Below the pieces are notes generated by a model. That model had not been told where the DNA came from. It saw only the letters and a program-made list of their open reading frames with translations, and did no database searches. A DNA stretch of 35,014 nt, from positions 994,321 to 1,029,334 of the forward strand of contig NW_014577075.1 of assembly GCF_000485595.1 (NCBI RefSeq). The letters are read 5' to 3'. This DNA is from Priapulus caudatus. Taxonomy: Eukaryota. Every line of letters begins with the position of its first letter. Position 1 is the stretch's first letter. The translations under genes were made by a program, and so were the position numbers. Positions 4,201-33,733 of this stretch are shown in pieces.

Positions 4201-6789
4201 ACCATAGAGTGTAGCAGTTACTGATAAGACCAGGTAGAACTTTGAAATTCACAGCTGAAAAAATGACAAAGAATTAAAATTGTACACATATTATGTCCTT
4301 GTCTTATATAGATTGTGAGATTAACAAAATCTTGCAATATCATCGCATTCATGTCTCACACTTTATACAAGTGGCAATATGTACCCTATTCACGGACAAA
4401 TATATCATCTCTGTTGTATCGCAACACATGGCTGAACACGCCTTGAAATCTCATTCAAAAACTTAATGAGTTCCTGTTTCATTGTCCTATCCAACAAATG
4501 CTAATAAATTTACCTGGCACCTTATTAGATGTAATCACTTGCAACAACTATTGAGCCCTCTTCGTAAAGACACAGTACACGCGCTGGGCCTAAACACCGC
4601 CCTTTACGCACCTGAAGCAGAAATAACAGTATTAAGAGTTTTAAGTTTGGGGCTCGGAAGAAATACTTAATAGCATCTAGCATATAGACCTGGCTACATA
4701 TTAACCTGGGTTTTGCGAGAAAGTTGGTAGTTATATTGTATGTAAACTTACTTACTAAGTCACACTGAGTATTTTCAAAAGTGCACAGGATGGTTTTTGT
4801 TAACTTTCCTATCCAATAGTTTGGCGTATCATTTAGTAAATGGCTTATGAATCAGACTTCATATCCTAGGAACCACTTAATCAATGCATACTGCATAGCA
4901 TAAAATGAACACGACAATAGAAATATGACAATAGTTCGTAGATGAGCATATAAATATGGACTTTATAGATTTTTGTAGCCATGTAGAGTCTTGCGTAACT
5001 ACTTGGGCAAACATACATAAATACCGACATATTGGCGGTTCGCTCATGAAGTGTCCTTGTACCTCATCAAGCCTAGATCCGTGAAGTGTGATCAGGATTG
5101 GCTAGTATATATATTACTCCCTCACTGCATAGGAATAATTTAACCGATACCGCAATAAAACTTCTGATCTATCGAGCAGCATCACACGGTCTGTGCCTGC
5201 ACCTATATTTAGCATTACACTCACCTCACACTACTCACATTTTCACTCAACATTCATCTCTGCGCTACCATGGAGCACACCTTCAACTGAAGTTGATGTT
5301 TCCCCACGCTGCACTATCTGTCTCCATCTAACACCCAGTCTACACCAATCAGGCCTAAAACAGAAAGAAGCATATATACCCATTAATAGAAGCAGTACAC
5401 GTTAATAATCATAAGGTGAACAAGTGCTCTAAATGATAAGGAAAACTAAAAAAAAGAAACATTCCAAAAAAGCTCCTCACCACAAAACATGAATTTTCAT
5501 AGCATCTATGATCATTCATAATCATCTCTGGTTGTAATCCAGAGATTTCTATTTCCATATATTGAATATAACGATCCCACTAAAACTTGTTACACTTATT
5601 TCTTACCATTAGGATTGCATCACACGCACCATGCTATTAATATACGAACTAACCATATATATGTGATTATAGATAAATTTCTGTACATAAATTAATGACA
5701 TCAATAGCTAAACCTTCTCCACTATCATAGAATACAGATTCCCAAAATTCCAGCCTGCAGGTCGCTCATCTCCAGACATATCACCCTGTCCATATAAACG
5801 AACCATGCACAATCCATGTTCTGGCACCCAGTCACCGTCGTAGCAACACTGCCTGTCGTAATACCAACCCTCTACTCATAACAAATAAAGCCTCTTCTCC
5901 TTAATTAATAAAAAAAATCGACCGACACACTTGTAGGATGTATGGATGTCTCATGAGCTTAGTATAGCTCATAGGTCTATGTCGAGGGTACTACTGCCAA
6001 ACGTACCCTGGTACGCCGGTATACTCAGAACTTATCCTGGTAAACCTATATGAGGTTAGGTTAGATAGGTAAGATAGGCGTAGTCACTCCTAGACGCGTT
6101 ATGGAGTAGGCGAGTACGGCCCGCATATAGAATAGTACCAGGGTACATCCGATACCGGACCGAACAGGGTAACGTTTTTTTCTTTTCCGGCAGTACGCTG
6201 GAGGAATAGACCCTGCAGCCTAACTTAAGCCAATAGTCTTAATCCCCCAGGGTAACTGCGAGACGTACCCCTGTAACACTGAATGTTAGGTAGGGTTAGN
6301 NNNNNNNNNNNNNNNNNNNNNNNNCGTAATGTGTGTGTGTGTGTGGCATGTGTGTGCTGCTGTGTGTCGTGTGTCGTGTCGTGTGTCACAAGTGTGTGAT
6401 GTAGCGTGGTCGTTACAGTCTCTACCTGGGTCAGTTTTCCCTCCGTGTACATAACTACACAATTATTGTTCAAGTGTACAGACATAGACAGTATTCAAGT
6501 GCTACGCAAATCACGAGTCCCCACAGTTCCCGGAGAACCCCCTCTTTTAAAACGAGTCAGTTCCTTTATAGGCATTGCATTTCAACGAATCCTAGCTTCC
6601 GAGACCCCCATTTCGAACATAGCAGTTCCAGCAGTATCCCAATTCAACAAATAGTTCCAGAAGACCCCCAATTTCTAGGTCTGGTAGTTCCAGAGCGCCC
6701 TTTGTGAACCTTCGCAGTGGCGACAATAACCTACCCATATGTGGAGGTGAGTGCCCCCCCCCAACGTGACATGCTCGCATGCCATTGGC

Positions 6790-8300
6790 CGCGGGCCGCG
6801 ATGTGTGACTGGGTAGGGACATGGTCCGGGGAACCATCCGCGCGTGTGTGGACTGGGGAGGTGGACATGGTCCGGGCCGCGTGTGTGGACTGGGAGGTGG
6901 ACATGGTCCGGGCGGTGGTGTGGACTGGGAGGTGACATGGGTCCGGGACACGCGTGTGTGGACTGTTTGAGGTGTACTGATTCTGGGCCGCGGTGTGGAT
7001 GGGAGTTGGAGCATGGTCCGGGCCGCGCAGTTGGACTGGAGCTGTGTACATGTCCGGGCCGCGTGATGTGGACTGGGAGGTGGTACCATGTCCGGGCGCT
7101 GTGTGTGGACTGGGAGGTGGATCATGCGTCGGGCCGCGTGTGTGCGACTGGAGGTGCACATGTGCCGGGTCTGCGTGTGTGGACCTGGGCAGGGTACATG
7201 GTCCGGGCCGCTGTGTGTGGACTGGGAGGTGTACATGGTCCGCGGCCGCAGTGTGTGGACTGGGGGTGGACATGGTCCAGGCCCGCCAGTGCTGTGGACT
7301 GGGCCATGTACATGATACTGCGGCGCATCACCATAACCCGCATCGCGGCCCGCGTGTGTGGACTGGGAGGATGGTGTCCGGCCGGCCGTTGTGTGGACGG
7401 GCGGTGCACATGTCGGTCCGCGTGTGTGCGACTGGGAGGTGGAGCTGGTCCGAGCCGCCGTGTGTGCGAATATCGGAGGTGAGCATGGTCCGTGGGGGCC
7501 GCAGTGTGAATGACTGGGAGGTGGACTGCGTTCCAGGGCCGGCGAGTAGTGGCACTGAGGAGCGTGGACATGGTCCGGGCCGCGTGTGTGGCTGGGCCCG
7601 TGACATGGTCGGCCCAGCCGTGTGTGACTGGGAGGTGGACATGGTCCGGGCCGCCCGTGTGGTGGACTGGAGTGTGGACATGGTCGCGCGGGGCCGCTGT
7701 GTGTGGACTGGCAGAGTGGACATGGTCCGGGGCCGCCGGTGTGCTGGGACTGCGGAGGTGGACATAGGTCCCGGGCCGCTGCATGTGACTCGGCCTGTTG
7801 CACATGGCCCGGGCCGCGTGTGTGGAACTGGGAGGCTGGACATGCTGTCCGGGCCGCGCTACCACAGGACCCGCGCCTCCCTTGACCATCCCTGCGCAAA
7901 GGCTCCAGCAACCCAACCAGTGTGTGGGACTGGAGAGCCGTGCGACATGGTCGGCGATTGTGTGGACTGGAGGTGGACATGGTCCGGTGCCGCGTTGTGC
8001 TGGCTGGGCCGATGTACATGGTCCGGGCCGCGTGTGTGGGACTGGTGAGGATGATCATGGTCGGGGCATGCGGTTGGACTGGGCAGGACTCCGTGACACA
8101 TTGGTCAGGCCTGGGTCGTGGACTCGGCATGCCAATGGTCCGCGGCCACCCGTGTGTGGACTGGCGGCCTATTGTACATGGTGCCGGGCGCGGGGGTGTG
8201 GATTGGCGCCGTGTGACGATGCGATCCGGCCGCGGGCTGACTGGACTCGTTTTCCGTGCACATGGTCCGGGCGCGGGTGCTGCGACTGGGCCAATGCACA
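6790..8300. repeat. GC-rich 36-bp minisatellite, copy 1 (~40 units)
   Basis: Unit GTGTGTGGACTGGGAGGTGGACATGGTCCGGGCCGC with heavy indel noise. Confidence 0.95.
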
Positions 8301-8446
8301 TACGTGTCAGACAGTGGCAGCCGCCTTCTCGACGTAGTCGGCGTCCAGGAGCTACAGGACGGTCCCTTCAGTGGTAGGTTGTTGCTGGCCTTGCTGACGG
8401 CAGTGGCACCCGTGCGGCTTCGTCGCTATCTGATCGTTGACGGCCC

Positions 8447-12384: not shown

Positions 12385-13450
12385 CGCACGCACGCACGCA
12401 CGTACGCTACGCACGCACGCATGCACGCGACACAGAGGGAGGAGAGAAGAGAGTTTAAGAATGTGCGTAACTGCGTTTAGTTCAACAATGTCTTAATCAT
12501 AAAACCGAAGAATCTACATGATAGTTATTAGTGATCTTTAGTGATCAATCTTGCTTGCTAATGAGAGATATGTTCTACTTAAAGATTATTGTTGTAGGTC
12601 GAATGAATGCTGTTACATTTAGTTTACTCAAACGTGCCTGCAAATACCATCTCTGCTTCTCATTTTTGAATTTCTGGGAGACCCCCAGACCACCCGACCT
12701 GTGTGCTTACACATCCACTTGTACCCGCTAGCCTATCGGCCCCGGAAGTCTGATAGAGCCTAGGCTGCCCATTTTTTGCACTGTAACACTGCTATAGCAC
12801 CATTAAGACAATAAAACACTACTAGGTTAGGCTAGATTAGCATGTAGATGCGCCGATTCGCCCTGCACGAAATGACAGTGCCCCAGCAAGTTAGTCTGGT
12901 CTATATACTGCAATGACTAAAATAGTGGCTAGATGGTGCTTTTTTTAGACGAAGGAGTTTAAAGATTAGGCAATGACCAAGAAAAATAGGTAATGTAAAA
13001 CTATGTTCAACAGTGAGGAAAAAAAAACATGTAAAAGTGCATTATAGGTTATATCTTTTTAAGAAATTTTAGCCGACACCAATTTAGCGTGACGAGGCTC
13101 TTCAACGTCTGTGTTTCAACCGCTTGGCGTTAGGGGTCAATTTAGCTTGACTGATTGGGTTCACCAGCCGGCGAGCTTCCGCACGCGCAAACCACGTTCC
13201 CGACCTGATGGCGACTGCCTCCCCCAGGGGAGGAGGGCCACTCCATATTATTGCATGGTGAGTAGTGCCGCGGAGGGATCCCATGATTTTCAACCCTTTA
13301 AACTTTTCCGTTGCCGTGCTTCGCATTTTTAAGATTATCTCGTTACCAGGGCGATCAAAGTTTAAGTTACCATGAGATCTTACATTTTTGCCGTTCCGGA
13401 GACCTAGTTTTAATATTCCGTTCAGGGCTCGTCTTCAGAATACGTTGACG
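12385..13450 (+). repeat. Indel-rich duplicate of ~135-1200
   Basis: Collinear match (gagtttaagaatgtgcgtaactgcg ... gaccta gttttaatattcc) with frequent 1-nt indels. Confidence 0.9.
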
Positions 13451-15555
13451 CGTAATGTGTGTGTGTGTGTGGCATGTGTGTGCTGCTGTGTGTCGTGTGT
13501 CGTGTCGTGTGTCACAAGTGTGTGATGTAGCGTGGTCGTTACAGTCTCTACCTGGGTCAGTTTTCCCTCCGTGTACATAACTACACAATTATTGTTCAAG
13601 TGTACAGACATAGACAGTATTCAAGTGCTACGCAAATCACGAGTCCCCACAGTTCCCGGAGAACCCCCTCTTTTAAAACGAGTCAGTTCCTTTATAGGCA
13701 TTGCATTTCAACGAATCCTAGCTTCCGAGACCCCCATTTCGAACATAGCAGTTCCAGCAGTATCCCAATTCAACAAATAGTTCCAGAAGACCCCCAATTT
13801 CTAGGTCTGGTAGTTCCAGAGCGCCCTTTGTGAACCTTCGCAGTGGCGACAATAACCTACCCATATGTGGAGGTGAGTGCCCCCCCCCAACGTGACATGC
13901 TCGCATGCCATTGGCCGCGGGCCGCGATGTGTGACTGGGTAGGGACATGGTCCGGGGAACCATCCGCGCGTGTGTGGACTGGGAGGTGGACATGGTCCGG
14001 GCCGCGTGTGTGGACTGGGAGGTGGACATGGTCCGGGCCGCGTGTGTGGACTGGGAGGTGACATGGGTCCGGGACACGCGTGTGTGGACTGTTTGAGGTG
14101 TACTGATTCTGGGCCGCGGTGTGGATGGGAGTTGGAGCATGGTCCGGGCCGCGCAGTTGGACTGGAGCTGTGTACATGTCCGGGCCGCGTGATGTGGACT
14201 GGGAGGTGGTACCATGTCCGGGCGCTGTGTGTGGACTGGGAGGTGGATCATGCGTCGGGCCGCGTGTGTGCGACTGGAGGTGCACATGTGCCGGGTCTGC
14301 GTGTGTGGACTGGGCCGTGTACATGGTCCGGGCCGCGTGTGTGGACTGGGAGGTGGACATGGTCCGGGCCGCGTGTGTGGACTGGGAGGTGGACATGGTC
14401 CGGGCCCGCCAGTGCTGTGGACTGGGCCATGTACATGATACTGCGGCGCATCACCATAACCCGCATCGCGGCCCGCGTGTGTGGACTGGGAGGATGGTGT
14501 CCGGCCGGCCGTTGTGTGGACGGGCGGTGCACATGTCGGTCCGCGTGTGTGCGACTGGGAGGTGGAGCTGGTCCGAGCCGCCGTGTGTGCGAATATCGGA
14601 GGTGAGCATGGTCCGTGGGGGCCGCAGTGTGAATGACTGGGAGGTGGACTGCGTTCCAGGGCCGGCGAGTAGTGGCACTGAGGAGCGTGGACATGGTCCG
14701 GGCCGCGTGTGTGGCTGGGCCCGTGACATGGTCGGCCCAGCCGTGTGTGACTGGGAGGTGGACATGGTCCGGGCCGCCCGTGTGGTGGACTGGAGTGTGG
14801 ACATGGTCGCGCGGGGCCGCTGTGTGTGGACTGGCAGAGTGGACATGGTCCGGGGCCGCCGGTGTGCTGGGACTGCGGAGGTGGACATAGGTCCCGGGCC
14901 GCTGCATGTGACTCGGCCTGTTGCACATGGCCCGGGCCGCGTGTGTGGAACTGGGAGGCTGGACATGCTGTCCGGGCCGCGCTACCACAGGACCCGCGCC
15001 TCCCTTGACCATCCCTGCGCAAAGGCTCCAGCAACCCAACCAGTGTGTGGGACTGGAGAGCCGTGCGACATGGTCGGCGATTGTGTGGACTGGACGTGGA
15101 CATGGTCCGGTGCCGCGTTGTGCTGGCTGGGCCGATGTACATGGTCCGGGCCGCGGGTGTGGGACTGGTGAGGATGATCATGGTCGGGGCATGCGGTTGG
15201 ACTGGGCAGGACTCCGTGACACATTGGTCAGGCCTGGGTCGTGGACTCGGCATGCCAATGGTCCGCGGCCACCCGTGTGTGGACTGGCGGCCTATTGTAC
15301 ATGGTGCCGGGCGCGGGGGTGTGGATTGGCGCCGTGTGACGATGCGATCCGGCCGCGGGCTGACTGGACTCGTTTTCCGTGCACATGGTCCGGGCCGCGG
15401 GTGTGGACTGGGCCATGCACATTGTCCAAGTGGCAGCGCCTTTCTCGACGTAGTCGGCGTCCAGGAAGCTACAGACGGCCTTCATGTAGGTGTTGCTGGG
15501 CCTTGCTGACGGCAGTGCACCCGTGGGCTCTCGGTCATCCTGATGTTGACGGCTG
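13451..15555 (+). repeat. Near-identical duplicate of 6325-8445
   Basis: Identical from cgtaatgtgtgtg onward; identical ORFs at 6406 and 13532. Confidence 0.93.
13917..15420. repeat. GC-rich 36-bp minisatellite, copy 2
   Basis: Same unit; nearly identical to copy 1 including irregular units. Confidence 0.95.
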
Positions 15556-16516
15556 TCCCTATGCAAATAGCTTCGAATTTGTCATGTTTCGGATTGGGTT
15601 GGAACAGAAAGGCGGGCGATGTCGACGGGAGCCTTATTAGAAAGTTGTAGGCAACAACTCTGATGATAGGTTAGGCCTGGAATGCAGGTGGTCTCAGCCA
15701 CTCTTATATTATATTATATTAGTATATTAGTATATTATATATTATATATTATATTAGTATATATATATTATATTAGTATGGTACTGAACCCAGACTATTC
15801 AATTTCATTGTACGTGTTTGATGTGATGTACTTCAGCACACGTGATAGCTTCTGGGTGATCCATATATGGCACCGCCATGCTTGTTGTGTTTAATGTAGC
15901 GTTTTGATTTGATTTAACATATAATCGGGATATTATCGCCAACCGGCAATTGTCAGGGTTTATACAGGCCCATTTTGCATATTACTAAACTCACAGCACA
16001 TTTTGATACATTTGACAGCACTTTCCTCACCTACACATGAATCAATAGTTTTGCACGTATGCCATGCTGGAATTTACATACATGATTTTCCTTACTTTTG
16101 TAATCTTTCGACTGAACCACCCCAAAAAATCAAACAAAACTTGTTCTTTTAAATTTGACTAATTTTTGCCTTAACTAGTCACTGTCTTACAAGTGTATTT
16201 GTTTTAGGTATCATGAGTTAGTGGTAACAGGTTATAAGCAACCTGCATTATAGAGCCGAGCATTAATGGAGGTACAGAGTAGGTCTGCTGACTGCTGATT
16301 GATGGCTGTTACACAAGTCCTTAGTTTTAAAAAAGCAATCAGGGTGGATGCAGAAAGGGACATTTGGAGTCAGGCTATTGATCTGCTGCAAAAAGTTTAA
16401 AATCTGTAACAAGTTACAACCAGGCTAAATTTTTGCTGTGCACTAGTAAACAAGTGCCGCAGAGCGACAGCGCTCATCTAACCTCTACTGCGGTGACTCT
16501 GTGGTGGAGTGGTGGG

Positions 16517-17463
16517 NNNNNNNNNNNNNNNNNNNNNNNNNNNNNNNNNNNNNNNNNNNNNNNNNNNNNNNNNNNNNNNNNNNNNNNNNNNNNNNNNNNN
16601 NNNNNNNNNNNNNNNNNNNNNNNNNNNNNNNNNNNNNNNNNNNNNNNNNNNNNNNNNNNNNNNNNNNNNNNNNNNNNNNNNNNNNNNNNNNNNNNNNNNN
16701 NNNNNNNNNNNNNNNNNNNNNNNNNNNNNNNNNNNNNNNNNNNNNNNNNNNNNNNNNNNNNNNNNNNNNNNNNNNNNNNNNNNNNNNNNNNNNNNNNNNN
16801 NNNNNNNNNNNNNNNNNNNNNNNNNNNNNNNNNNNNNNNNNNNNNNNNNNNNNNNNNNNNNNNNNNNNNNNNNNNNNNNNNNNNNNNNNNNNNNNNNNNN
16901 NNNNNNNNNNNNNNNNNNNNNNNNNNNNNNNNNNNNNNNNNNNNNNNNNNNNNNNNNNNNNNNNNNNNNNNNNNNNNNNNNNNNNNNNNNNNNNNNNNNN
17001 NNNNNNNNNNNNNNNNNNNNNNNNNNNNNNNNNNNNNNNNNNNNNNNNNNNNNNNNNNNNNNNNNNNNNNNNNNNNNNNNNNNNNNNNNNNNNNNNNNNN
17101 NNNNNNNNNNNNNNNNNNNNNNNNNNNNNNNNNNNNNNNNNNNNNNNNNNNNNNNNNNNNNNNNNNNNNNNNNNNNNNNNNNNNNNNNNNNNNNNNNNNN
17201 NNNNNNNNNNNNNNNNNNNNNNNNNNNNNNNNNNNNNNNNNNNNNNNNNNNNNNNNNNNNNNNNNNNNNNNNNNNNNNNNNNNNNNNNNNNNNNNNNNNN
17301 NNNNNNNNNNNNNNNNNNNNNNNNNNNNNNNNNNNNNNNNNNNNNNNNNNNNNNNNNNNNNNNNNNNNNNNNNNNNNNNNNNNNNNNNNNNNNNNNNNNN
17401 NNNNNNNNNNNNNNNNNNNNNNNNNNNNNNNNNNNNNNNNNNNNNNNNNNNNNNNNNNNNNNN
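16517..17463. other. Assembly gap (947 N); smaller gaps at 6300-6324 (25 N) and 20945-20954 (10 N)
   Basis: Runs of N. Confidence 1.
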
Positions 17464-17900
17464 ACGGACGCACGGACGATCATGCGATTCTACAAGCTGC
17501 ATCTGACTATGTCAGATGAGCTAAAAACTATAGATTAATCTGGTATAATTTCAAATTCATTATGATTTGCAAAGAAGTACTAATCTATGCCAGAGAATGT
17601 ATACAATAACAGTGGAAAATAATAGGTATAAGAAACATTTCATAGTATAATTTGAATGGACATACAGAATTGTTTCCATTGCTAATGCAATGACGGAGAA
17701 TGTTAATATACTACCATATATTTACCAAGCACTGTTTGTTATGAAATAAGACCATGAAGAGAGTGACTTTGATATAATATTATACAATAGGTTAATCAAT
17801 TTTTCCACTTTTTACTCTTTTAACTGGCCAATTAATATAATGCTTATCAATTTAAAGATTCCATTGTTCATTAACTGTTGTTTTACAATCAAATGCCCAT

Positions 17901-24490: not shown

Positions 24491-24679
24491 GTTTACAACA
24501 GTTCATACGCTCCGTTTATAATAAAAATAAGCGTTACAATGTACCGCCTCATTCGCTGGGCGGCGCCACCATGCATGCATTGCGCAAGTCTACCGTCCGA
24601 CCGCCTTCGCAAAATATTATCGGTGAGAAACTGCCGGCTAGCTATATCCGTCTATATTTTGCGGGTCTCACTGTGAAAG

Positions 24680-24866
24680 ATGTCGTCTGCCGATGTACAG
24701 AGAGAATTTGACGTGGTTATTTTCGGTGCCACCGGTTTTACCGGCCAATTTGTCGTCGAAGAAATTGCTCGCGTGGTGCAGAAGGAACATGGCATAAAGT
24801 GGGCAATAGCTGGTCGAAACAAATCCAAGCTAGAGACTGTTTTAAAACAAGCTTCTGAAGTAGTTG
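24680..24866 (+). CDS. SCCPDH: SCCPDH exon 1
   Basis: MSSADVQREFDVVIFGATGFTGQ...AIAGRN; donor G|gtacgt. Confidence 0.93.
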
Positions 24867-27800
24867 GTACGTAAAACTGTCCCGCCCACGGGCCACGGCC
24901 ACAGGCACAGGCACAGGCTTGGAACGTTTCAATAGTAATATTATGGTAAATAATCTACTCTCTTTCAGTTTTACCTATTATTGCCGACAATTTCCTGTAA
25001 ATGCCGTCCAAATGCTCATCTGCAATGCTTGTCCGTTGTCGGCAATAATAGGTGAAAGAGAGTAGAGAAATGTTTCTTAAATTTTATTGAAACGCTCCAA
25101 GTGCCTGTGCCGCAACACACGTATACCGTACACGGTACCGCACTCACGCCGCTGTGCACAAACATCAAGAATAAAGCGACTCCCACAGCGGCGTACGTAT
25201 GCAAGCCAGGCGAAGATTTTCGTAGCAAATACATTTTGCGTGTATTTACCATCATTTTACTATTGAAGCGTTCCAAGTTCTTGTGGTCCCGGTCGCCCTT
25301 CTTCGCATGCAACGTCCATATATTTATGTGTACGCCTATTTTGAATATTTGGTACAAAAACACGCTTTCTTGTTTACAGGGAATGATGTCACTGGCACGT
25401 CCATCATCATTGCAGATGTTGCGGATGAGGAATCATTGCTCTCCATGTGTAGGCTCACCCGTATGATCCTAAACTGCGTTGGACCGGTTTGTATTGCAGT
25501 TGAAAGCTTGTAATTTAGTGGACACATTCCAACCTTTTGCACAGTTTTGATGCAGTCTAACCCTGTGATCAACATCATGTGGGTCAGGTGATTCATGTGT
25601 GTATCACGCACGTAGTACAGCAAGCTGGGCTTTGCAATGTAATCATTATAGTAATCGGGCGCGTAGCTAACTCATTTTGTGTGTGTGTGGGGGGGGGGGC
25701 AAAGCCACGTGTGTGGTGTGTTTTGGGGAGGTGACCGCCATCGACCACATATTGTATCTACTTTTTTTCTGGGGGGGGCAACTGCCCCTTGCCCCCCCCC
25801 CCTGCTAGCTACGGCCCTGGTAACGATATAAACATAAGAGTTTCAATACTATTTCGTATGTCTACTCCTGGTATAATCACATTTAGCTCGTATGTTTTAA
25901 TGGCGAATTTAACTGGATAGAATACGAATGCCATGTTGATTCAGATGTTGACCTGTATTTCAGTATCGCTTTTTTGGAGAGCCAGTTGTCAAAGCCTGTG
26001 TGGAGGCAGGGTCCCATCACCTTGATATAAGCGGGGAGCCACAGGTAATGTGGAACGTACATATCACAATAATATATCAACAAATAGACAACGCATATAT
26101 ACATCTGTGAGATCATGTGGTTTTCATTATCCATACCTTCAAGAAGTTGACGTTAACCTGTAACCATGTCTGCGAGATACTACGCCTATCGATCCATGGA
26201 ACGTTAGAACGTCTTATCATAGCAAAGCTTGCCTAGAGGCATCTGGCAATCATGGCAGGGAGATTGCGTGACTGCCTTTAACAATGTAGCCCAGTGTGTA
26301 ATCTCACACGTGTTGTAGTTTATAGAGACGATGCAGCTGAAGTATCATGACGCGGCGCAGAAGGCTGGATGCTACATCATCAGCACCTGTGGATTTGACA
26401 GCATACCTGCCGACCTGGGAGTCATCTTCACCAGAGACGTGTTCAAAGGTATGCTGGCTATATCAAGCTAGATCCTCTCTTAACGTATTCCCGCTCATTA
26501 TCTTCACTGCAGCATACGAAACGTACGTTATATATCTACTAAACCAGTTACACTACCATTGATGAAACATGCACCATGAAAAGTTTTGGGTGCTTCCTTG
26601 GAAATACAGTGTATAATTAACAAAATTTAATGTTTTTATTATGAAGGAGATCTGAACTCCATAGAGGCTTACCTCAGTATAAACACTGGGCCAGAGGCAA
26701 GTAGAATATTTACATCTTCTCGGTTATCAATCTGTAGCATTTAATATATCACAAAAGCAACTAGACATGTTTTGGAATACATGATACTTTCTCAGACTGT
26801 TTGGTTTTGACAGACAGCAAATTTTTCAACCCACTTCTCTGTGAATATTTATGTCTAATCTGAGTGGGAGAAGTTTGAAATTTATAATATATATTTAATA
26901 CTTGATATCCATGTTATCATATTATAACTATACAAAAGCCTATTAGTAGTCCACATAATTAGTTTAATTACAATGAGCTATGGTTTATTCATATATGCCC
27001 GTTCCCTAGGAAAGTTCTTGTTTATGTGTTGGTTCTGTCTATCCTCATGCCAGGGAGGATCATGGAATTATGGAACGTATCAGACAGCTATACATTCTGT
27101 ACCCCATACCAGAGATGAGCTACTGTTTGGCAAGAAGTTAGTTTCTTATGAAGTCCCCCCACCTGCCCATAAGGCGACGAAAAGGTAACAACGAACACTA
27201 GGTCAACGCGAACCATCAAGCATGCCTTTGCTGTTAGTAATGACACCGAAAAAGTAACAAACGCTCGCACTGGTGTAGCGTACAATGATCAGTGCTGCCG
27301 AATAGCAGATGTCATGTCTGGGGGTATGTCTGGTAAGAGCTGGGGGTGGTGGGGGGGATACAGCAATGAACAGGGAATGTAATGTTAGAGTTGTAGGAAT
27401 TCCAAAATACAACAGTGAACAGGGAATTTAAAGTGAGAGTTAGAGGAATACCAAGATGCAACAATAAGCAGGGAATGTTAGGTAAGAGTGTTGGGGAATA
27501 CAAGAATATAACAATAAATGGAATTTCAGGTGAGAGTGGGAGGGTGGGATACAAGAATACAACAATAACTAGGGAACATCAGGTGAGAGCAAGGGCATAC
27601 AACAGTAAGTGTTGAATAGTTGTTTACTAACTGCCAAGGCATGTTCGATGGTCGCTCGATCCCATGATCTCATCTCGCGCACCTTCATTCCATTTTCTTA
27701 TGCGTCTAGGGAGGCGGCGGTCACTACGCTACGTATGAGTCGGCCATTCACGGGTTTGCGTCTGTCAAAGAGTTGTCGGCACTGAGGAAAACCCTATTCG

Positions 27801-30800
27801 TTAAACCTCTGCCAAAGCCAGCCCACAGACTGCAGAGAAGGTACAGCCAGCATAGCAAGAGATAGAGGGGTGCTGGTACTCTGATGTGATCGGGGACGTA
27901 TTCGTCCCGCACGGATGCTCGCGCCACGCACCGATGTTGCCATGGTGACCTTCATGTGTGTGATTCTTGCAGGCCGCAATTGTTTCGCGGGGAGAGGGTT
28001 GGAAGCGACTGGTGCGTTCACTTCCAGGGAGCAGATCGCTCCGTCGTGCAGAGGACACAGAGGTTCAACTACGAGCAGCTTAAAGAGCGGCCGGTACGCC
28101 CCAGTTCATAGATGTAATCGTAACGCGGAGAAGCGTGCAGAATTAGTCGACCTATTAGCCGTTCATGTGCGTGTGAGCTGACCAGGCTATATCCTCTCCA
28201 ATGCGGTCGGTCAAGCGCACACAGATTGTACGTGCATATTTGGACGCCAAAGTGTTGGCTTCGCGGCACTTCGTTGTTAAGCATAGTTTTTAGAGTCTGC
28301 CTATGCCTGCACTTATTGGCTAGAGTTGTCTGTCGATCAGCCAGGCGAATATTAGGATTGCAGCAGCTCACCTGATTGTATAGTATGCTGTTATAGATAC
28401 ATTTGTAGTGTGGAAGCCAAGGCCATCCTTAAAAAATTATATGTTTGCTGTCCTCCGACCGACCCACGAAAATAGCCGCGACCCAAAAGTTTTTTTTTAC
28501 ATTTTGGGTTCCATATTTTTAACATTTTTTTACATTTTTTTTTTACATTTTTCATAATTAAGACTGAAACACAAAGCATGTGTGGCAAACATGAGGACAG
28601 ACTTAAAAGAACTATTATGCCTCACAAAAAAGAAGACCTACCTACCTACCCACTAAAAAAATCATGGGTCGGAGGACAGCAAACATAGAATTTTTTAAGG
28701 ATGGCCCAAATGCAAAACCAACTGTTATTGTGCATACAGGGCGTCCGATTCAGTTGTAATTACAGTGGAAGTAAGATCACACTCGGTCACGCCAACTCAG
28801 TCGGTAGCTTAGCAGTGGTTAGTACGCAGTCCGTACGTGAAATGTGCACTTGATTTTCAGGTGCAGTTCAATCCATTTGTGAGGATTTCCTCCACATTCT
28901 GGCTTGTCATCATTGCACTCATGACCACCATCTTCTCCCTGCTCGCAAACTTTAGCTTTGGAAGAAGCCTGCTGGAAAAGGTGAGCATGTTGTCTGGGAA
29001 CTGTTGACACCGAGGTGTAATGGCCACGGGCACGCTGTCAGAAACAAATTTTTTCATTCCCTTAGGTGTGCAATGTTTCTGTTTACAGTATGAGAGAAAA
29101 AGTCAATGTTAAGACTGGCATTTGGAATAATTTTGTTTTTGAAAACTGGCCCCTGGATGCTATTCCAGAGAGAACGGGACACGCATTGAGAAAACGTTGG
29201 AGTTGGCTAGTCGTTTCTGCTTTTTCGTGTCATGTCGATGATAATATGGGTCAAGACGTCAAGGTTAATTGTAATTACCTCCGCCCAACGGAGTTGGAGG
29301 AGGTTATGGTTTCGCTATTGTGTGTTCGTGTGTTCGCGCGATCGATATTAGCGCGGCGGTCGATCGATATCACCCAGCGAGCCAGCGAGGCAGCAAGCAT
29401 GTCGCTGGCGGAGGTATGCACTCTGTGAGTGCACTCTGTCTAGTTCATATTTGTAACAAGTGTTCCTCTTGTACGGTTTACAACGATTGCTTGTGACCAT
29501 TGAAGGAAATCATGTTTATTACTTAATTTCATTATAAATAATATCATTACTGAACTATCTGTGTGAATAGCTAGAATTATATTTTATACCTGTCTTATTT
29601 GTTACAGTTGCCTGATTCTAATATAGTTCTCCTGTATATCTCTAGGCATAAGGCATGAGTGTGGCGCAGTGCCACATTAAAGCTAATTACATTATTGATG
29701 GAGTGATTGCAGTGTAGTGATTCACGTTGTATTTGGCAAGTTGACAACTCACTGTTTCTTTATTATTAGTACCCCAAGATATTCACTCTCGGATATTTCA
29801 GCCACGAAGGTCCCACGAAGAAGCAGGTTGGTTATCCTTCACTTTTGGCAGGTGTACATTTCATGTAGAAACGGTAGAAGTGCATAATAGTCAATAGTTG
29901 TTGATAATTATAAATAACAGGCATATCAAATACATATATGCACTACTGCATGGTCATCAAACGGGATTGTGTGTAACAAAACGTGGAAACAAGAAAACAG
30001 CGACAAGTTCTTAGGTTCTTGTTTTCCATGCCTGCAGATTGAGGGTTCCTCCTTCTCCTGGCATTTTGTCGGGGAGGGATACGAAACGAAGATCGCGGAT
30101 CCTGACCAGCAACACGATGATAAGCCGTCAAAGATGATTGAAACACGAGTGTGCGGGCCGGGTATGTGTTCTCGACGCTCGTGACAGAGTTGCCGTACCG
30201 TTCTAGAACGTTACCGTTGACAACGTAACATTTTTTTGAAATGAAAGTATGTGACCATTGATTTATACAATGATTCGATGAATCGATTTGTACTCGATCA
30301 CCGATTGATGGTCTTTCATCGAAGGTTTTGTAGATGGATGCACTGCAGAAACTATCATTTTCCTGTTATGGTTGCTCGCCGACTTCTAATAGTGCAACTG
30401 TTTTACTTTGGTAGGAATATATATTACGATTGAAGTGAATATGATGCAAGTCATCCAACTATACTCTTATTCACATCACCAGTTAGTGTTCCTGTTCATA
30501 CTGCATATTGTTCATTATATTATGTCACTGTCTTTAAATATGATTGTGATTGTGTTGCGTGCACAGAGCCAGGATATGTTACCACCCCTATCTGCCTGGT
30601 CGCTGCCGCCATGACAGTTCTAAAGGAAGCCGAAAAAATGCCACTCGAGTAAGTATATGCATTATGCACCTTGAAGGACTGTTTCAGACTACTAAATGCC
30701 TGCAGCAGTTTACACGTATTTAGTTTGCCAGAGACCTGACAAAAAGGAATAATCTTTTGCCATTTTTGCATGTATGTAATGTGAAATTCCGTTTCGTTTA

Positions 30801-30904
30801 TTCCCCTCTGCAGTGGTGGAGTGCTGACCCCTGGTGGTGCATTTAGAAAGACGTCGCTGCGTGACAGACTCACTGAGGCTGGCATGAAGTTTGAGAAGCT
30901 GTAG
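24680..30904 (+). CDS. SCCPDH: Saccharopine dehydrogenase-like oxidoreductase, 12 coding exons, 426 aa: join(24680-24866,25380-25486,25964-26044,26319-26448,26647-26696,[27054-27184 or 27710-27840],27973-28093,28861-28980,29770-29826,30038-30161,30567-30648,30814-30904)
   Basis: Rossmann motif FGATGFTG, then LNCVGPYRFFGEPVVKAC, DISGEP, CGFDSIPADLG, PGYVTT and GGVLTPG. All intron phases are compatible and the exons sum to 1281 nt ending in TAG. Confidence 0.95.
25380..25486 (+). CDS. SCCPDH: SCCPDH exon 2
   Basis: Acceptor tttacag|; IIIADVADEESLLSMC...LNCVGP; donor |gtttgt. Confidence 0.92.
25656..25819. mobile_element. hAT-type MITE in SCCPDH intron 2
   Basis: Ends GGGCGCGTAGCTA...TAGCTACGGCCCTG with subterminal GGGGGCAA/TGCCCC motifs; no clean TSD. 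Confidence 0.6.
25964..26044 (+). CDS. SCCPDH: SCCPDH exon 3
   Basis: Acceptor tttcag|; YRFFGEPVVKACVEAGSHHLDISGEPQ; donor |gtaatg. Confidence 0.93.
26319..26448 (+). CDS. SCCPDH: SCCPDH exon 4
   Basis: Acceptor ttgtag|; FIETMQLKYHDAAQ...CGFDSIPADLG; donor |gtatgc. Confidence 0.93.
26647..26696 (+). CDS. SCCPDH: SCCPDH exon 5 (GC donor)
   Basis: GDLNSIEAYLSINTGPE then GAG|gcaagt; the 50-nt length restores phase 0. Confidence 0.87.
27054..27184 (+). CDS. SCCPDH: SCCPDH exon 6A (alternative, predicted mutually exclusive)
   Basis: cag|GGSWNYGTYQTAIHSVPHTRDELLFGKKLVSYEVPPPAHKATKR|gtaaca; 131 nt, stop-free, homologous to 6B. Confidence 0.82.
27208..27655 (+). promoter_or_regulatory. Long-range intronic RNA stem (arms 27208-27240 and 27624-27655) between SCCPDH exons 6A and 6B, covering branch point TACTAAC 27625-27631
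   Basis: GCGAACCATCAAGCATGCCTTTGCTGTTAGTAA is complementary to TTACTAACTGCCAAGGCATGTTCGATGGTCGC: 29 pairs (one G-U), 3 mismatches, 1 bulge. Confidence 0.72.
27365..27610 (+). repeat. Degenerate ~50-bp purine-rich tandem repeat (~5 units) in the loop of the intronic stem
   Basis: Recurrent motif AGGGAAT...GTGAGAGT...GGAATACAAGAATACAACA. Confidence 0.7.
27710..27840 (+). CDS. SCCPDH: SCCPDH exon 6B (alternative, closer to the family consensus)
   Basis: tag|GGGGHYATYESAIHGFASVKELSALRKTLFVKPLPKPAHRLQRR|gtacag; 131 nt. Confidence 0.9.
27973..28093 (+). CDS. SCCPDH: SCCPDH exon 7
   Basis: Acceptor ttgcag|; ...WCVHFQGADRSVVQRTQRFNYEQLKERP; donor |gtacgc. Confidence 0.9.
28421..28706. mobile_element. 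PIF/Harbinger-type MITE in SCCPDH intron 7
   Basis: ~40-bp TIR GGCCATCCTTAAAAAATT(A/C)TATGTTTGCTGTCCTCCGACC; flanked by 3-bp direct repeat CAA. Confidence 0.85.
28861..28980 (+). CDS. SCCPDH: SCCPDH exon 8 (hydrophobic segment)
   Basis: Acceptor ttttcag|; VQFNPFVRISSTFWLVIIALMTTIFSLLANFSFGRSLLEK; donor |gtgagc. Confidence 0.92.
29770..29826 (+). CDS. SCCPDH: SCCPDH exon 9
   Basis: tag|YPKIFTLGYFSHEGPTKKQ|gttggt. Confidence 0.92.
30038..30161 (+). CDS. SCCPDH: SCCPDH exon 10
   Basis: cag|IEGSSFSWHFVGEGY...TRVCGP|gtatgt. Confidence 0.92.
30567..30648 (+). CDS. SCCPDH: SCCPDH exon 11
   Basis: cag|EPGYVTTPICLVAAAMTVLKEAEKMPL|gtaagt. Confidence 0.93.
30814..30904 (+). CDS. SCCPDH: SCCPDH exon 12
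   Basis: cag|GGVLTPGGAFRKTSLRDRLTEAGMKFEKL*. Confidence 0.93.
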
Positions 30905-32715: not shown

Positions 32716-33733
32716 CAGGGGCGTAGCCAGTATGTAGCACTGTAGGCCCGGCCCTATACTTTTTTTGGCCAAGTTATCTTTTTTTTAAACACCTATAATT
32801 CAAATCCATAAGCTTGCTGGACGAGTTTAAAAGTCTAGACAGGAAAAACTATTGAAATGAACGTAGCAAGAATGTGGCTAAATTAGGTGACCTATTCTTC
32901 TGTCATCTAGGCCTAACGCCTCATGGTTGAATGAACAACCATGGCAAAGGTACTCTGCTAGTAAAGACGGTGTTTACTGTTGTTACTGTCGTTTATTCGG
33001 TACCGGCGGTAGTGGTGAAGCGGATCACAGCCTGTGAGTGACTGGAAAAACATTTCTCTTATGATTAAGAGGCACCTAAAATGTAAGGCCCATCTAACAA
33101 ACACTGTCAAAGCAGAGAGTTTCCTGTCTGTATCACTTGGTAAACAAAAAGATGTACGTAGTCAGTTGTCATCAGCTTTTTCAAAGCAAATAGAACGTAA
33201 CCGTAAAATCATATCTAGCATACTCGATGTAATCATTCTTTGTGGTAAACAGAACATACCATTAAGAGGTAGAACCGAAGACAGAAGCAATTTTATGGCT
33301 CTGATCAATTTCCATGCTAAGGCTAACCCTGTCCTTGAACAGCATTTTGCCAATGCACCCAACAATGCTAAATATCTGTCACCACATATACAAAATGAAT
33401 TGATTGAGCTTTGTGGAGAACAGATAAAGGATACCATTGTAAAAGATTGTAATGATTCTGTTTGCTTCGGCTTGATGGCTGATGAGGCTACCGATTGTGC
33501 AACACTTGAGCAAGTTGCAATGTGTGTTAGATTTGTACAAAGGAAAACAAACAATATCGCAGTATGTGAAGTTTCTTGGCTTCAAAGATGCGTGTTCAAC
33601 TACAGGTGAAGCCTTAGCAAACCAGTTCTGCCAAACACTAGATGAGTGTGGCATCAATGCCAATAAGATGAGAGCCCAATGCTATGATGGGGCCTCTAAT
33701 ATGAGCGGAAAGTATTGTGATGTCCAGCCCTAG
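32716..33733 (+). mobile_element. Truncated hAT DNA transposon with frameshifted transposase (ZMYM1/THAP12-like, DUF4371-type)
   Basis: Left end CAGGGGCGTAGCCAG. W..YSASKDGVYCCYCRLF zinc-finger-like motif. ORF 33034-33609 with CGKQNIPLRG, NAKYLSPHIQNELI, LMADEATD, QVAMCVRFV, then a frameshift to KFLGF...RAQCYDGASNMSG. Confidence 0.88.

What the first reader, a model, noticed from the sequence alone, without database searches (positions are those of the whole stretch)
27054..27840. Tandemly duplicated, predicted mutually exclusive exon 6 (6A/6B) in SCCPDH
Seen: two stop-free exons of exactly 131 nt, both entering in phase 0 and leaving in phase 2, both with AG/GT boundaries. They align without gaps (GGSWNYGTYQTAIH...PPPAHKATKR vs GGGGHYATYESAIH...PKPAHRLQRR). 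Including both or skipping both shifts the frame, so only one can be used per mRNA. Strong amino-acid divergence with preserved length and frame implies an old duplication kept by selection. Inference: two isoforms differ in the segment after the NAD(P)-binding domain, possibly changing substrate preference of an enzyme whose function is poorly defined. I do not know of a described mutually exclusive exon pair in this gene.
Basis: partly seen in the sequence, partly recalled or inferred. Interest (0 to 1): 0.85.

Follow-up and report, generated by a model that had tools for sequence, protein, structure and literature searches.

The report
Repeatedly duplicated switch exon in SCCPDH
A penis-worm gene for a poorly understood NAD(P)-dependent enzyme carries two interchangeable versions of one exon, both found in RNA and very likely used one at a time, and scallops, mussels and a periwinkle swap the same protein segment, probably after separate duplications, which likely marks a segment that tunes what the enzyme acts on.

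Summary
Confirmed. Two 131-nt, same-phase exons (6A 27054-27184, 6B 27710-27840) lie in the Priapulus caudatus SCCPDH gene. RNA reads join 5>6B, 6B>7 and 6A>7; no 6A>6B joint was listed; 6A+6B depth (23.8) roughly equals flanking exons (26.5-27.8). Coverage is thin and 5>6A was not seen. Both isoforms already exist as automatic RefSeq models (X1, X2). 6B is the ancestral type; 6A is strongly diverged but frame-intact and is predicted to fold. New here: RefSeq isoform pairs of 8 mollusc species (scallops, mussels, Littorina) differ only in this same segment, and a 44-column tree groups copies by family, favouring separate duplications (gene conversion not excluded). Amphioxus swaps a different segment, the hydrophobic anchor. 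The 6A-6B intron holds a 29-bp inverted repeat covering a perfect TACTAAC, a candidate branch-point mask, though transposon-like repeats score as high. Frame shift with NMD is the likely backstop. A substrate switch is inferred, not shown. No paper on this pair was found; the scan has not reported SCCPDH before but has reported the same architecture in other invertebrate enzymes. New member of a known kind; interest 0.5.

The parts
24680..30904 (+). SCCPDH (saccharopine dehydrogenase-like oxidoreductase) coding span, 12 exons per mRNA, 426 aa
   Evidence: model A reads as RefSeq X2, model B as X1; PF03435 at aa 12-146; 10 joints listed
26647..26696 (+). exon 5, ends in phase 0 at a GC donor
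   Evidence: joint 26694>27708 with 3 ambiguous letters
27054..27184 (+). exon 6A, diverged copy (RefSeq X2), aa 186-229
   Evidence: exon-shaped depth in 3 of 3 raw runs; 3 reads in X3 continue into exon 7
27208..27240 (+). 5' arm of intronic inverted repeat; holds GTTAGTA (27233-27239), the exact complement of the TACTAAC below
27358..27537 (.). 49-nt tandem repeat (3.7 copies) in the loop between the arms
27624..27655 (+). 3' arm of the inverted repeat, covering TACTAAC 27625-27631, predicted distant branch point of 6B (69-nt AG-free zone follows)
   Evidence: branch point predicted from consensus only
27710..27840 (+). exon 6B, ancestral-type copy (RefSeq X1, X3)
   Evidence: 5>6B 3 raw reads and 6B>7 5 raw reads, each also in the X1 contig; X2 contig
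27973..28093 (+). exon 7, common acceptor of 6A and 6B

Best explanation
Exons 6A and 6B are tandem copies of one exon of SCCPDH, both are spliced to exon 7 in RNA, and they are very likely used one at a time to give two 426-residue proteins that differ only in residues 188-228 and likely differ in substrate handling or activity. Shown: anatomy, both exons in mRNA, 6A>7 skipping 6B, 5>6B skipping 6A, frame shift if both or neither are used. Inferred: 6B is the ancestral default and 6A a fast-diverged derivative kept in frame by selection; wrong products are removed by nonsense-mediated decay; the choice for 6A is possibly helped by a 29-bp intronic stem that would hide the predicted branch point of 6B (about 35%); the swapped loop and two helices open the second domain and likely face the substrate side of the cofactor cleft (by recalled analogy with saccharopine reductase and carboxyspermidine dehydrogenase). 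The same segment is swapped in scallops, mussels and Littorina, probably through separate duplications.
For: Junctions: 5>6B 3 raw reads + contig, 6B>7 5 raw reads + contig; 6A>7 3 reads, agreement 1.0; no 6A>6B joint listed among 69 reads laid. Depth summed over 3 runs: 6A 8.2 + 6B 15.6 = 23.8 against exon 4 26.5, exon 7 27.8, exon 8 27.6 (exon 3, 81 nt, 18.7); 6A share of aligned bases 0.39, 0.18, 0.54. RefSeq X1/X2. 6B 49% and 6A 28% mean identity to 119 homologues, 1 of 119 closer to 6A. AlphaFold2 mean pLDDT 95.6 (6B) and 94.7 (6A); both match carboxyspermidine/lysine/saccharopine dehydrogenases, best Z 29.1, rmsd 3.5, 343-348 aligned. Same-length isoform pairs with all 8-19 differences inside aa 187-228 in 8 mollusc species. 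Copies group by family (scallop 95/85, mussel 97/93) and by type within scallops; AU test rejects one pan-mollusc second-copy clade, p 1.7e-6. Stem: 0 of 300 shuffles reach its score; each arm is the other's best partner in the pre-mRNA, -42.7 against -26.7 and -33.3 kcal/mol.
Against: Low coverage: the 5>6A junction was not listed, joints under 3 reads are hidden, the three raw runs are one study, so modest co-inclusion is not excluded. Differences in 6A share between runs are not significant (p 0.13 on estimated read counts). No 6A orthologue found. 6A changes S196T, G200S, A202P, L207E, R211G, P218E and its residues 201-220 model less well (pLDDT 82-84 against 92-95), which fits decay as well as retuning; the 6A model leans on an alignment of 6B-type rows. 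Positions 187-189, which differ in most pairs, are variable in the family anyway. The stem is absent from the equilibrium fold (5.2 kcal/mol worse when forced), and 4 of 63 gap-free 525-nt tiles and introns 1 and 7 hold inverted repeats as strong or stronger. Mollusc genomic DNA was not seen; the tree has 44 columns, the AU group was named after the first tree was seen, and 6A is a long branch of unsure place.
Confidence: 0.7

Rival explanations
1. Real mutually exclusive pair, but 6A gives a crippled or low-activity protein: an off/dimmer isoform or a copy drifting under relaxed selection, not a second specificity.
For: 6A scores 31.9 bits on an exon-6 profile against 79.1 for 6B and 50.6-82.8 for 16 mollusc segments; it loses residues conserved in 83-100% of homologues, and puts a proline at 202 inside a predicted helix. 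Second copies in Argopecten also run long.
Against: No stop or indel although third positions are near saturation (14 of 43); T193, A197, Y191, I198, K212, L214, P220, R229 kept; roughly a third of transcripts; fold predicted intact.
Confidence: 0.25
2. One ancient protostome (or molluscan) duplication, with the two copies homogenised by gene conversion in each lineage and lost elsewhere, rather than repeated duplications.
For: Parallel differences across families: 187 V/I/T against L in Mizuhopecten, 4 mussels and Littorina; 212 K against R/H in all scallops and mussels; 225 R/Q against K in 6 of 7 bivalves and in Priapulus. Annotation can miss copies: Ylistrum's single model carries only the second type.
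Against: Copies group by family and the AU test rejects a pan-mollusc clade; single exon-6 types in the Haliotis, Patella, Magallana, unionid, Daphnia, Limulus, Lingula, amphioxus proteins seen; 0 of 50 metagenome loci hold a tandem exon 6 (many are transcripts or distant eukaryotes).
Confidence: 0.3
3. The intronic inverted repeat is the decayed terminal repeat of a small transposon, and exclusivity rests on frame shift plus NMD and protein regulators alone.
For: Stronger inverted repeats in introns 1 and 7 coincide with multi-copy read pile-ups; a tandem repeat fills the loop; the stem is not in the equilibrium fold. 60% of human clusters have lengths not divisible by three (PMC5740500, passage).
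Against: The arms draw no read pile-up (depth 0 at 27191-27355, at most about 1.4 at 27620-27685), no further copy in the window, no clear target-site duplication; a 29-nt arm covers the heptamer by chance about 5% of the time and TACTAAC occurs 3 times on the + strand of 35 kb.
Confidence: 0.55
4. 6A is an unused or rarely used pseudo-exon, or a cassette included together with 6B.
For: 5>6A junction not listed; both assembled contigs (X1, X2) carry 6B only.
Against: Exon-shaped depth on 6A in 3 of 3 raw runs, 3 reads 6A>7, 6B depth only about 57% of its neighbours; RefSeq X2.
Confidence: 0.05

Closest known systems
Tandem duplicated exon substitutions / homologous mutually exclusive exons (PMC5740500, PMC9741552: passages; PMC8373072: listing and one supplement search)
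   Same: Adjacent homologous exons of equal length and phase, bridging junctions, frame shift on co-inclusion; convergent origin in orthologous genes is described as common.
   Different: SCCPDH is not named in PMC9741552's main text nor in the supplements searched; 6A is unusually far from the family consensus.
coq-2 exons 6a/6e of helminths, molluscs and annelids (PMC7434440, passages)
   Same: Equal-length (134 nt) mutually exclusive exons in a metabolic enzyme, one ancestral-like and one derived, patchy across invertebrate phyla, single or repeated origin unresolved.
   Different: There the substrate switch is shown by knock-outs and the derived exon is recognisably shared; here no function is tested and the derived copies do not form one clade.
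RefSeq automatic models XP_014667897.1 (X1) and XP_014667904.1 (X2) of Priapulus caudatus, and X1/X2 of Argopecten, Pecten, Mizuhopecten, four Mytilus, Littorina
   Same: Exactly these isoforms.
   Different: Machine annotation only; no interpretation attached.
RNA-pairing control of mutually exclusive exons: Drosophila srp (PMC4691838, passages), docker-selector model (PMC6071210, passages), ATE1 (PMC7797038, listing)
   Same: Long-range intronic complementarity beside an exon pair.
   Different: Here both arms lie inside the intron between the copies and would hide a branch point rather than loop out an exon; no competing partner of similar strength was found; no conservation or mutational test.
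Saccharopine dehydrogenase / carboxyspermidine dehydrogenase / lysine dehydrogenase fold (PDB 8H50, 8DEB, 3ABI, 5L76, 1E5L)
   Same: Whole-chain fold, Z 23-29; the CGFD motif aligns by sequence with 8DEB and 4INA.
   Different: 12-16% identity in the structural alignments; SCCPDH's reaction is uncharacterised (PMC12281486, passages); it carries a hydrophobic segment in exon 8.

Membership tests
Homologous mutually exclusive exons (criteria of PMC5740500) | Neighbouring exons, similar sequence, same length and reading frame, no in-frame stop | tested here: met
Homologous mutually exclusive exons (criteria of PMC5740500) | Junction reads bridging the other exon for each member | tested here: met
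   5>6B bridges 6A (3 reads + contigs); 6A>7 bridges 6B (3 reads)
Homologous mutually exclusive exons (criteria of PMC5740500) | No exon-joining reads unless joining shifts the frame | tested here: met
   none listed (threshold 3 reads) and joining shifts the frame; low power
Homologous mutually exclusive exons (criteria of PMC5740500) | Upstream junction 5>6A observed | tested here: inconclusive
   not listed; below the tool's reporting threshold or absent
Steric-hindrance type (donor to branch point under 50 nt) | Branch point close to the upstream donor | tested here: not met
   intron 525 nt; only CTRAY match is about 440 nt from the donor; branch point predicted, not mapped
U2/U12 incompatibility type | U12-type splice sites on one copy | tested here: not met
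   donors GCAAGT, GTAACA, GTACAG; none has the U12 consensus (consensus recalled)
RNA-structure-controlled exon choice | Complementary intronic elements beyond chance | tested here: inconclusive
   0 of 300 shuffles, but 4 of 63 window tiles as strong, and not in the equilibrium fold
RNA-structure-controlled exon choice | Conservation with compensatory changes; mutational rescue | not testable with these tools
   no related eukaryote genome on hand
coq-2-like substrate-switch exon | Isoforms differ in substrate or product | not testable with these tools
   needs enzymology
coq-2-like substrate-switch exon | Swapped residues line the active site | tested here: inconclusive
   segment placed at loop 182-190 and helices 191-214 after the first strand of domain 2; no residue-level mapping to a ligand-bound structure was returned
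SCCPDH (saccharopine dehydrogenase-like oxidoreductase) | PF03435 domain and full-length similarity to animal SCCPDH | tested here: met
   61.9 bits against cut-off 25.1; 44-59% identity over 97-100% to the other 119 of the 120 listed hits

The most novel reading that the evidence does not exclude
SCCPDH exon 6 is a recurrent evolutionary switch: duplicated at least four times (priapulid, scallops, mussels, periwinkle) to give one orphan NAD(P)-dependent enzyme two substrate pockets, perhaps as a coq-2-like metabolic change-over in animals that endure low oxygen (their tolerance is recalled, not tested), with Priapulus choosing between copies by an intronic anti-branch-point stem, while amphioxus uses a second duplicated exon to switch the same enzyme between membrane-anchored and soluble forms.
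Probability: 0.12. Interest if true: 0.8.

Novelty: new member of a known kind. Interest (0 to 1): 0.5.

Why it matters
SCCPDH is conserved from cnidarians to humans, is found on lipid droplets and binds several drugs, yet its reaction is unknown (PMC12281486, passages). Natural isoform pairs that differ in one 44-residue segment, arisen apparently several times, are ready-made matched controls: comparing them could point to the substrate and to the specificity residues. The case also adds a metabolic enzyme to the list of genes with convergent exon duplication, and offers a compact, testable splicing element (a stem over a predicted branch point). The architecture itself is well known and the isoforms already sit in RefSeq, which caps the surprise.

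Tried and rejected
No whole genome held, so no relatives' introns, dN/dS or covariation. Run search listed no holder on record as RNA; raw runs of the same species label were laid instead. X2 ('organism B' label) is near-identical over 6B (0 differences), so it is no test of conservation. Peptide searches: 6A found only its own RefSeq model, 6B nothing; phmmer of 6A over 1.84 billion representatives gave 3 hits, two of them tandem-repeat proteins and one 3240-aa record with no aligned stretch that I did not read. Metagenome scan: 50 loci of 132 pattern matches, 0 of 50 with a tandem exon 6; L022, L045 and L047 are whole-gene tandem copies. Only 21 clusters of the 120 listed hits were opened for isoforms, chosen partly for an isoform label. 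Whole-intron folding gave z 0.51 and no long-range stem; local accessibility values were uninformative and not used; the top three tiles were N-gap artefacts and were dropped. First gene model had wrong boundaries, corrected. Foldseek 'pdb' listing was not obtained; VIA-align second looks were used. Sequence search of PDB did not reach exon 6; PMC6264447 passages gave active-site residues I could not map. A link to mycobacterial Rv2953 enoyl reductase (recalled) was searched (listing only) and not pursued. No complex prediction was run, as no binding is claimed.
Full report
Observation. The window shows two exons at 27054-27184 (6A) and 27710-27840 (6B), each 131 nt, AG before and GT after, stop-free in frame. 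They align without gaps: 14 of 43 residues, BLOSUM62 score 72, 0 of 100,000 shuffles as high; 61 of 131 nt, with 19, 26 and 14 of 43 identical at codon positions 1, 2 and 3. After correcting boundaries, a 12-exon model (24680-30904) gives 426 aa with either exon; both together stop at aa 254 in 6B, neither stops at aa 222 in exon 7, each several junctions before the last. Exon 5 ends in a GC donor. No third copy is in the window.

Identity. The 6A peptide matches, at 100%, a protein labelled by its source as saccharopine dehydrogenase-like oxidoreductase isoform X2 of Priapulus caudatus. Its cluster holds X1, X2 and X3: X1 and X2 differ at 29 positions, all in aa 188-228; X3 has another first exon and 6B. 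The pair is therefore already in automatic annotation. No genome was held.

RNA. Three raw runs of the same species label (one study, 51-52 nt reads, about half of each read) and two contig sets were laid. Joints listed: 5>6B 3 raw reads and the X1 contig; 6B>7 5 raw reads and the contig. On the narrow stretch, 69 raw reads were laid; 3 reads of X3 leave the end of 6A into the first letters of exon 7 (agreement 1.0), 4 reads of X4 leave 6B into exon 7, no joint 6A>6B is listed and no loose end at the start of 6A (threshold 3 reads per listing). Depth is exon-shaped on 6A in 3 of 3 runs. Summed depth: 6A 8.2, 6B 15.6, exon 4 26.5, exon 7 27.8, exon 8 27.6, exon 3 18.7 (from the bins): the two copies add up to about one exon, as exclusive use predicts and a cassette on top of a constitutive 6B does not. 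The 6A share is 0.39, 0.18 and 0.54 by run, not significantly different (p 0.13 on estimated counts). Power is low; modest co-inclusion cannot be excluded.

Which copy is old. Against 119 homologue representatives 6B averages 49% identity, 6A 28%; 1 of 119 is closer to 6A. On an exon-6 profile 6B scores 79.1 bits, 6A 31.9. 6A keeps G186, Y191, T193, A197, I198, K212, L214, P220, R229 and changes S196T (S in 100%), G200S (94%), A202P (90%), L207E (83%), R211G (97%), P218E (74%). No stop or indel despite near-saturated third positions argues for constraint (inference); the codon-position pattern alone does not, since constraint on 6B could produce it. No 6A orthologue was found.

Relatives. Of 13 species whose labelled RefSeq isoforms I compared, 9 have same-length pairs differing only in this segment: Priapulus, Argopecten (19 differences), Pecten (14), Mizuhopecten (15), Mytilus trossulus, californianus, edulis (9 each), galloprovincialis (8) and Littorina saxatilis (10), all within aa 187-228; Limulus, Haliotis rufescens, Branchiostoma floridae and B. 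belcheri do not. Only 21 clusters of 120 listed hits were opened, with a bias to isoform labels, and no mollusc DNA was seen, so tandem exons there are inferred from the protein pairs. A 44-column tree groups copies by family (scallop 95/85, mussel 97/93; Littorina pair 93/85 in the smaller tree) and, within scallops and mussels, by type across species, so each pair predates those radiations. An AU test rejects one clade of all mollusc second copies (p 1.7e-6; group named after the first tree). Separate duplications are favoured; one old duplication with gene conversion remains possible given parallel differences at 187, 212 and 225. 6A is a very long branch and cannot be placed. 0 of 50 metagenome loci show a tandem exon 6. 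Amphioxus swaps a different 40-aa segment, matching exon 8: hydrophobic (best 19-residue Kyte-Doolittle mean 2.3) against polar (0.9), in both species.

Structure. AlphaFold2 gives mean pLDDT 95.6 (6B) and 94.7 (6A); residues 201-220 fall to 82-84 in 6A, and the two helices 191-202 and 204-214 merge. Both match carboxyspermidine dehydrogenase (Z 29.1, rmsd 3.5, 343-348 aligned), lysine dehydrogenase and saccharopine dehydrogenases. The swapped segment follows the NAD(P) domain (PF03435, aa 12-146) and the first strand of domain 2. That this loop and helix face the substrate is my recollection of this fold, not measured here. Positions 188-189 differ in all four lineages but vary across the family too.

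How exclusivity is likely enforced. Steric hindrance and U12 incompatibility are not met. Frame shift with NMD is available (mechanism per PMC5740500, passages). The 6A-6B intron holds an inverted repeat, 27208-27240 with 27624-27655, 29 pairs, -42.7 kcal/mol as a duplex, beyond 0 of 300 dinucleotide shuffles; each arm is the other's best partner in the pre-mRNA. The 3' arm covers TACTAAC (27625-27631), the intron's only CTRAY match and the only TACTAAC in the gene's 12 introns, followed by a 69-nt AG-free zone. If formed, the stem would hide 6B's predicted branch point and send 6A to exon 7. Against: it is not in the equilibrium fold (forced, 5.2 kcal/mol worse); 4 of 63 gap-free tiles and introns 1 and 7 have repeats as strong, those two with multi-copy read pile-ups; no competing partner or conservation is shown. 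The arms themselves draw no pile-up. I put a regulatory role at about 35%.

Literature. Searches for saccharopine dehydrogenase + mutually exclusive exons (1 paper, fungal transcriptomics), SCCPDH + splicing (46 papers, 20 listed, none about this by title or abstract start, none read), saccharopine dehydrogenase-like + alternative splicing + exon (1, unrelated by title) and Priapulus / mutually exclusive / exon duplication (157 with two terms, 20 listed, 0 of the 20 mention Priapulus) found no description. SCCPDH is absent from the main text of PMC9741552, from 1 supplementary file of PMC8373072 and from 10 of PMC5740500 (tables may use other identifiers or be cut; preprint supplements were closed; most subscription papers are not searched). 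Seen as passages: PMC12281486 (SCCPDH uncharacterised, lipid droplets, drug off-target), PMC7434440 (coq-2; mrp-1 independent origins as cited there), PMC9741552 (convergence), PMC5740500, PMC4691838, PMC6071210, PMC6264447. Listing only: PMC7797038, PMC7969005. The scan's own index has no SCCPDH note but several on duplicated exons in other invertebrate enzymes (unchecked).

Verdict. A real, expressed, very likely mutually exclusive exon pair of a familiar kind, already in machine annotation, made more interesting by apparent repeated duplication of the same exon in molluscs, a second switch in amphioxus, and a candidate branch-point-masking stem. Function of the isoforms is untested. New member of a known kind; interest 0.5.

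Noticed in passing
proteins P0029/P0062, P0070/P0103, P0084/P0099 (Branchiostoma); window equivalent exon 8, 28861-28980: Amphioxus SCCPDH isoforms swap a 40-aa segment matching exon 8: a hydrophobic copy against a polar copy, in B. floridae and B. belcheri; B. belcheri X1 (470 aa) carries both in tandem. Predicted membrane-anchored against soluble forms.
   Followed up: partly
window 24571-24622: Alternative first coding exon (RefSeq X3, 381 aa) splices to exon 2 and drops the glycine-rich dinucleotide-binding motif; would likely not bind NAD(P).
   Followed up: partly
window 26697-26698: GC donor (GAG|GCAAGT) on the intron just upstream of the exon pair, supported by the 5>6B joint; a weak donor may matter for the choice.
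   Followed up: partly
window 24918-25277, 28421-28706, about 29200-29430: Multi-copy repeats in introns 1, 7 and 8 with heavy, divergent read pile-ups; the first two have terminal inverted repeats, MITE-like.
   Followed up: no
window about 6300-8400 and 13450-15500; N gap about 16500-17470: Near-identical block repeated about 7.1 kb apart, each with a GC-rich 36-37-nt tandem array, next to an assembly gap: segmental duplication or assembly artefact.
   Followed up: no
window 33019-33609 +: 196-aa open frame that looks like a hAT-type transposase fragment (recalled resemblance, not searched).
   Followed up: no
L022, L045, L047: Metagenome loci with whole SCCPDH-like genes duplicated in tandem, another route to two versions.
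   Followed up: no
P0040 (Ylistrum balloti): The single annotated protein carries the second scallop exon type, suggesting an unannotated first copy in that genome.
   Followed up: no
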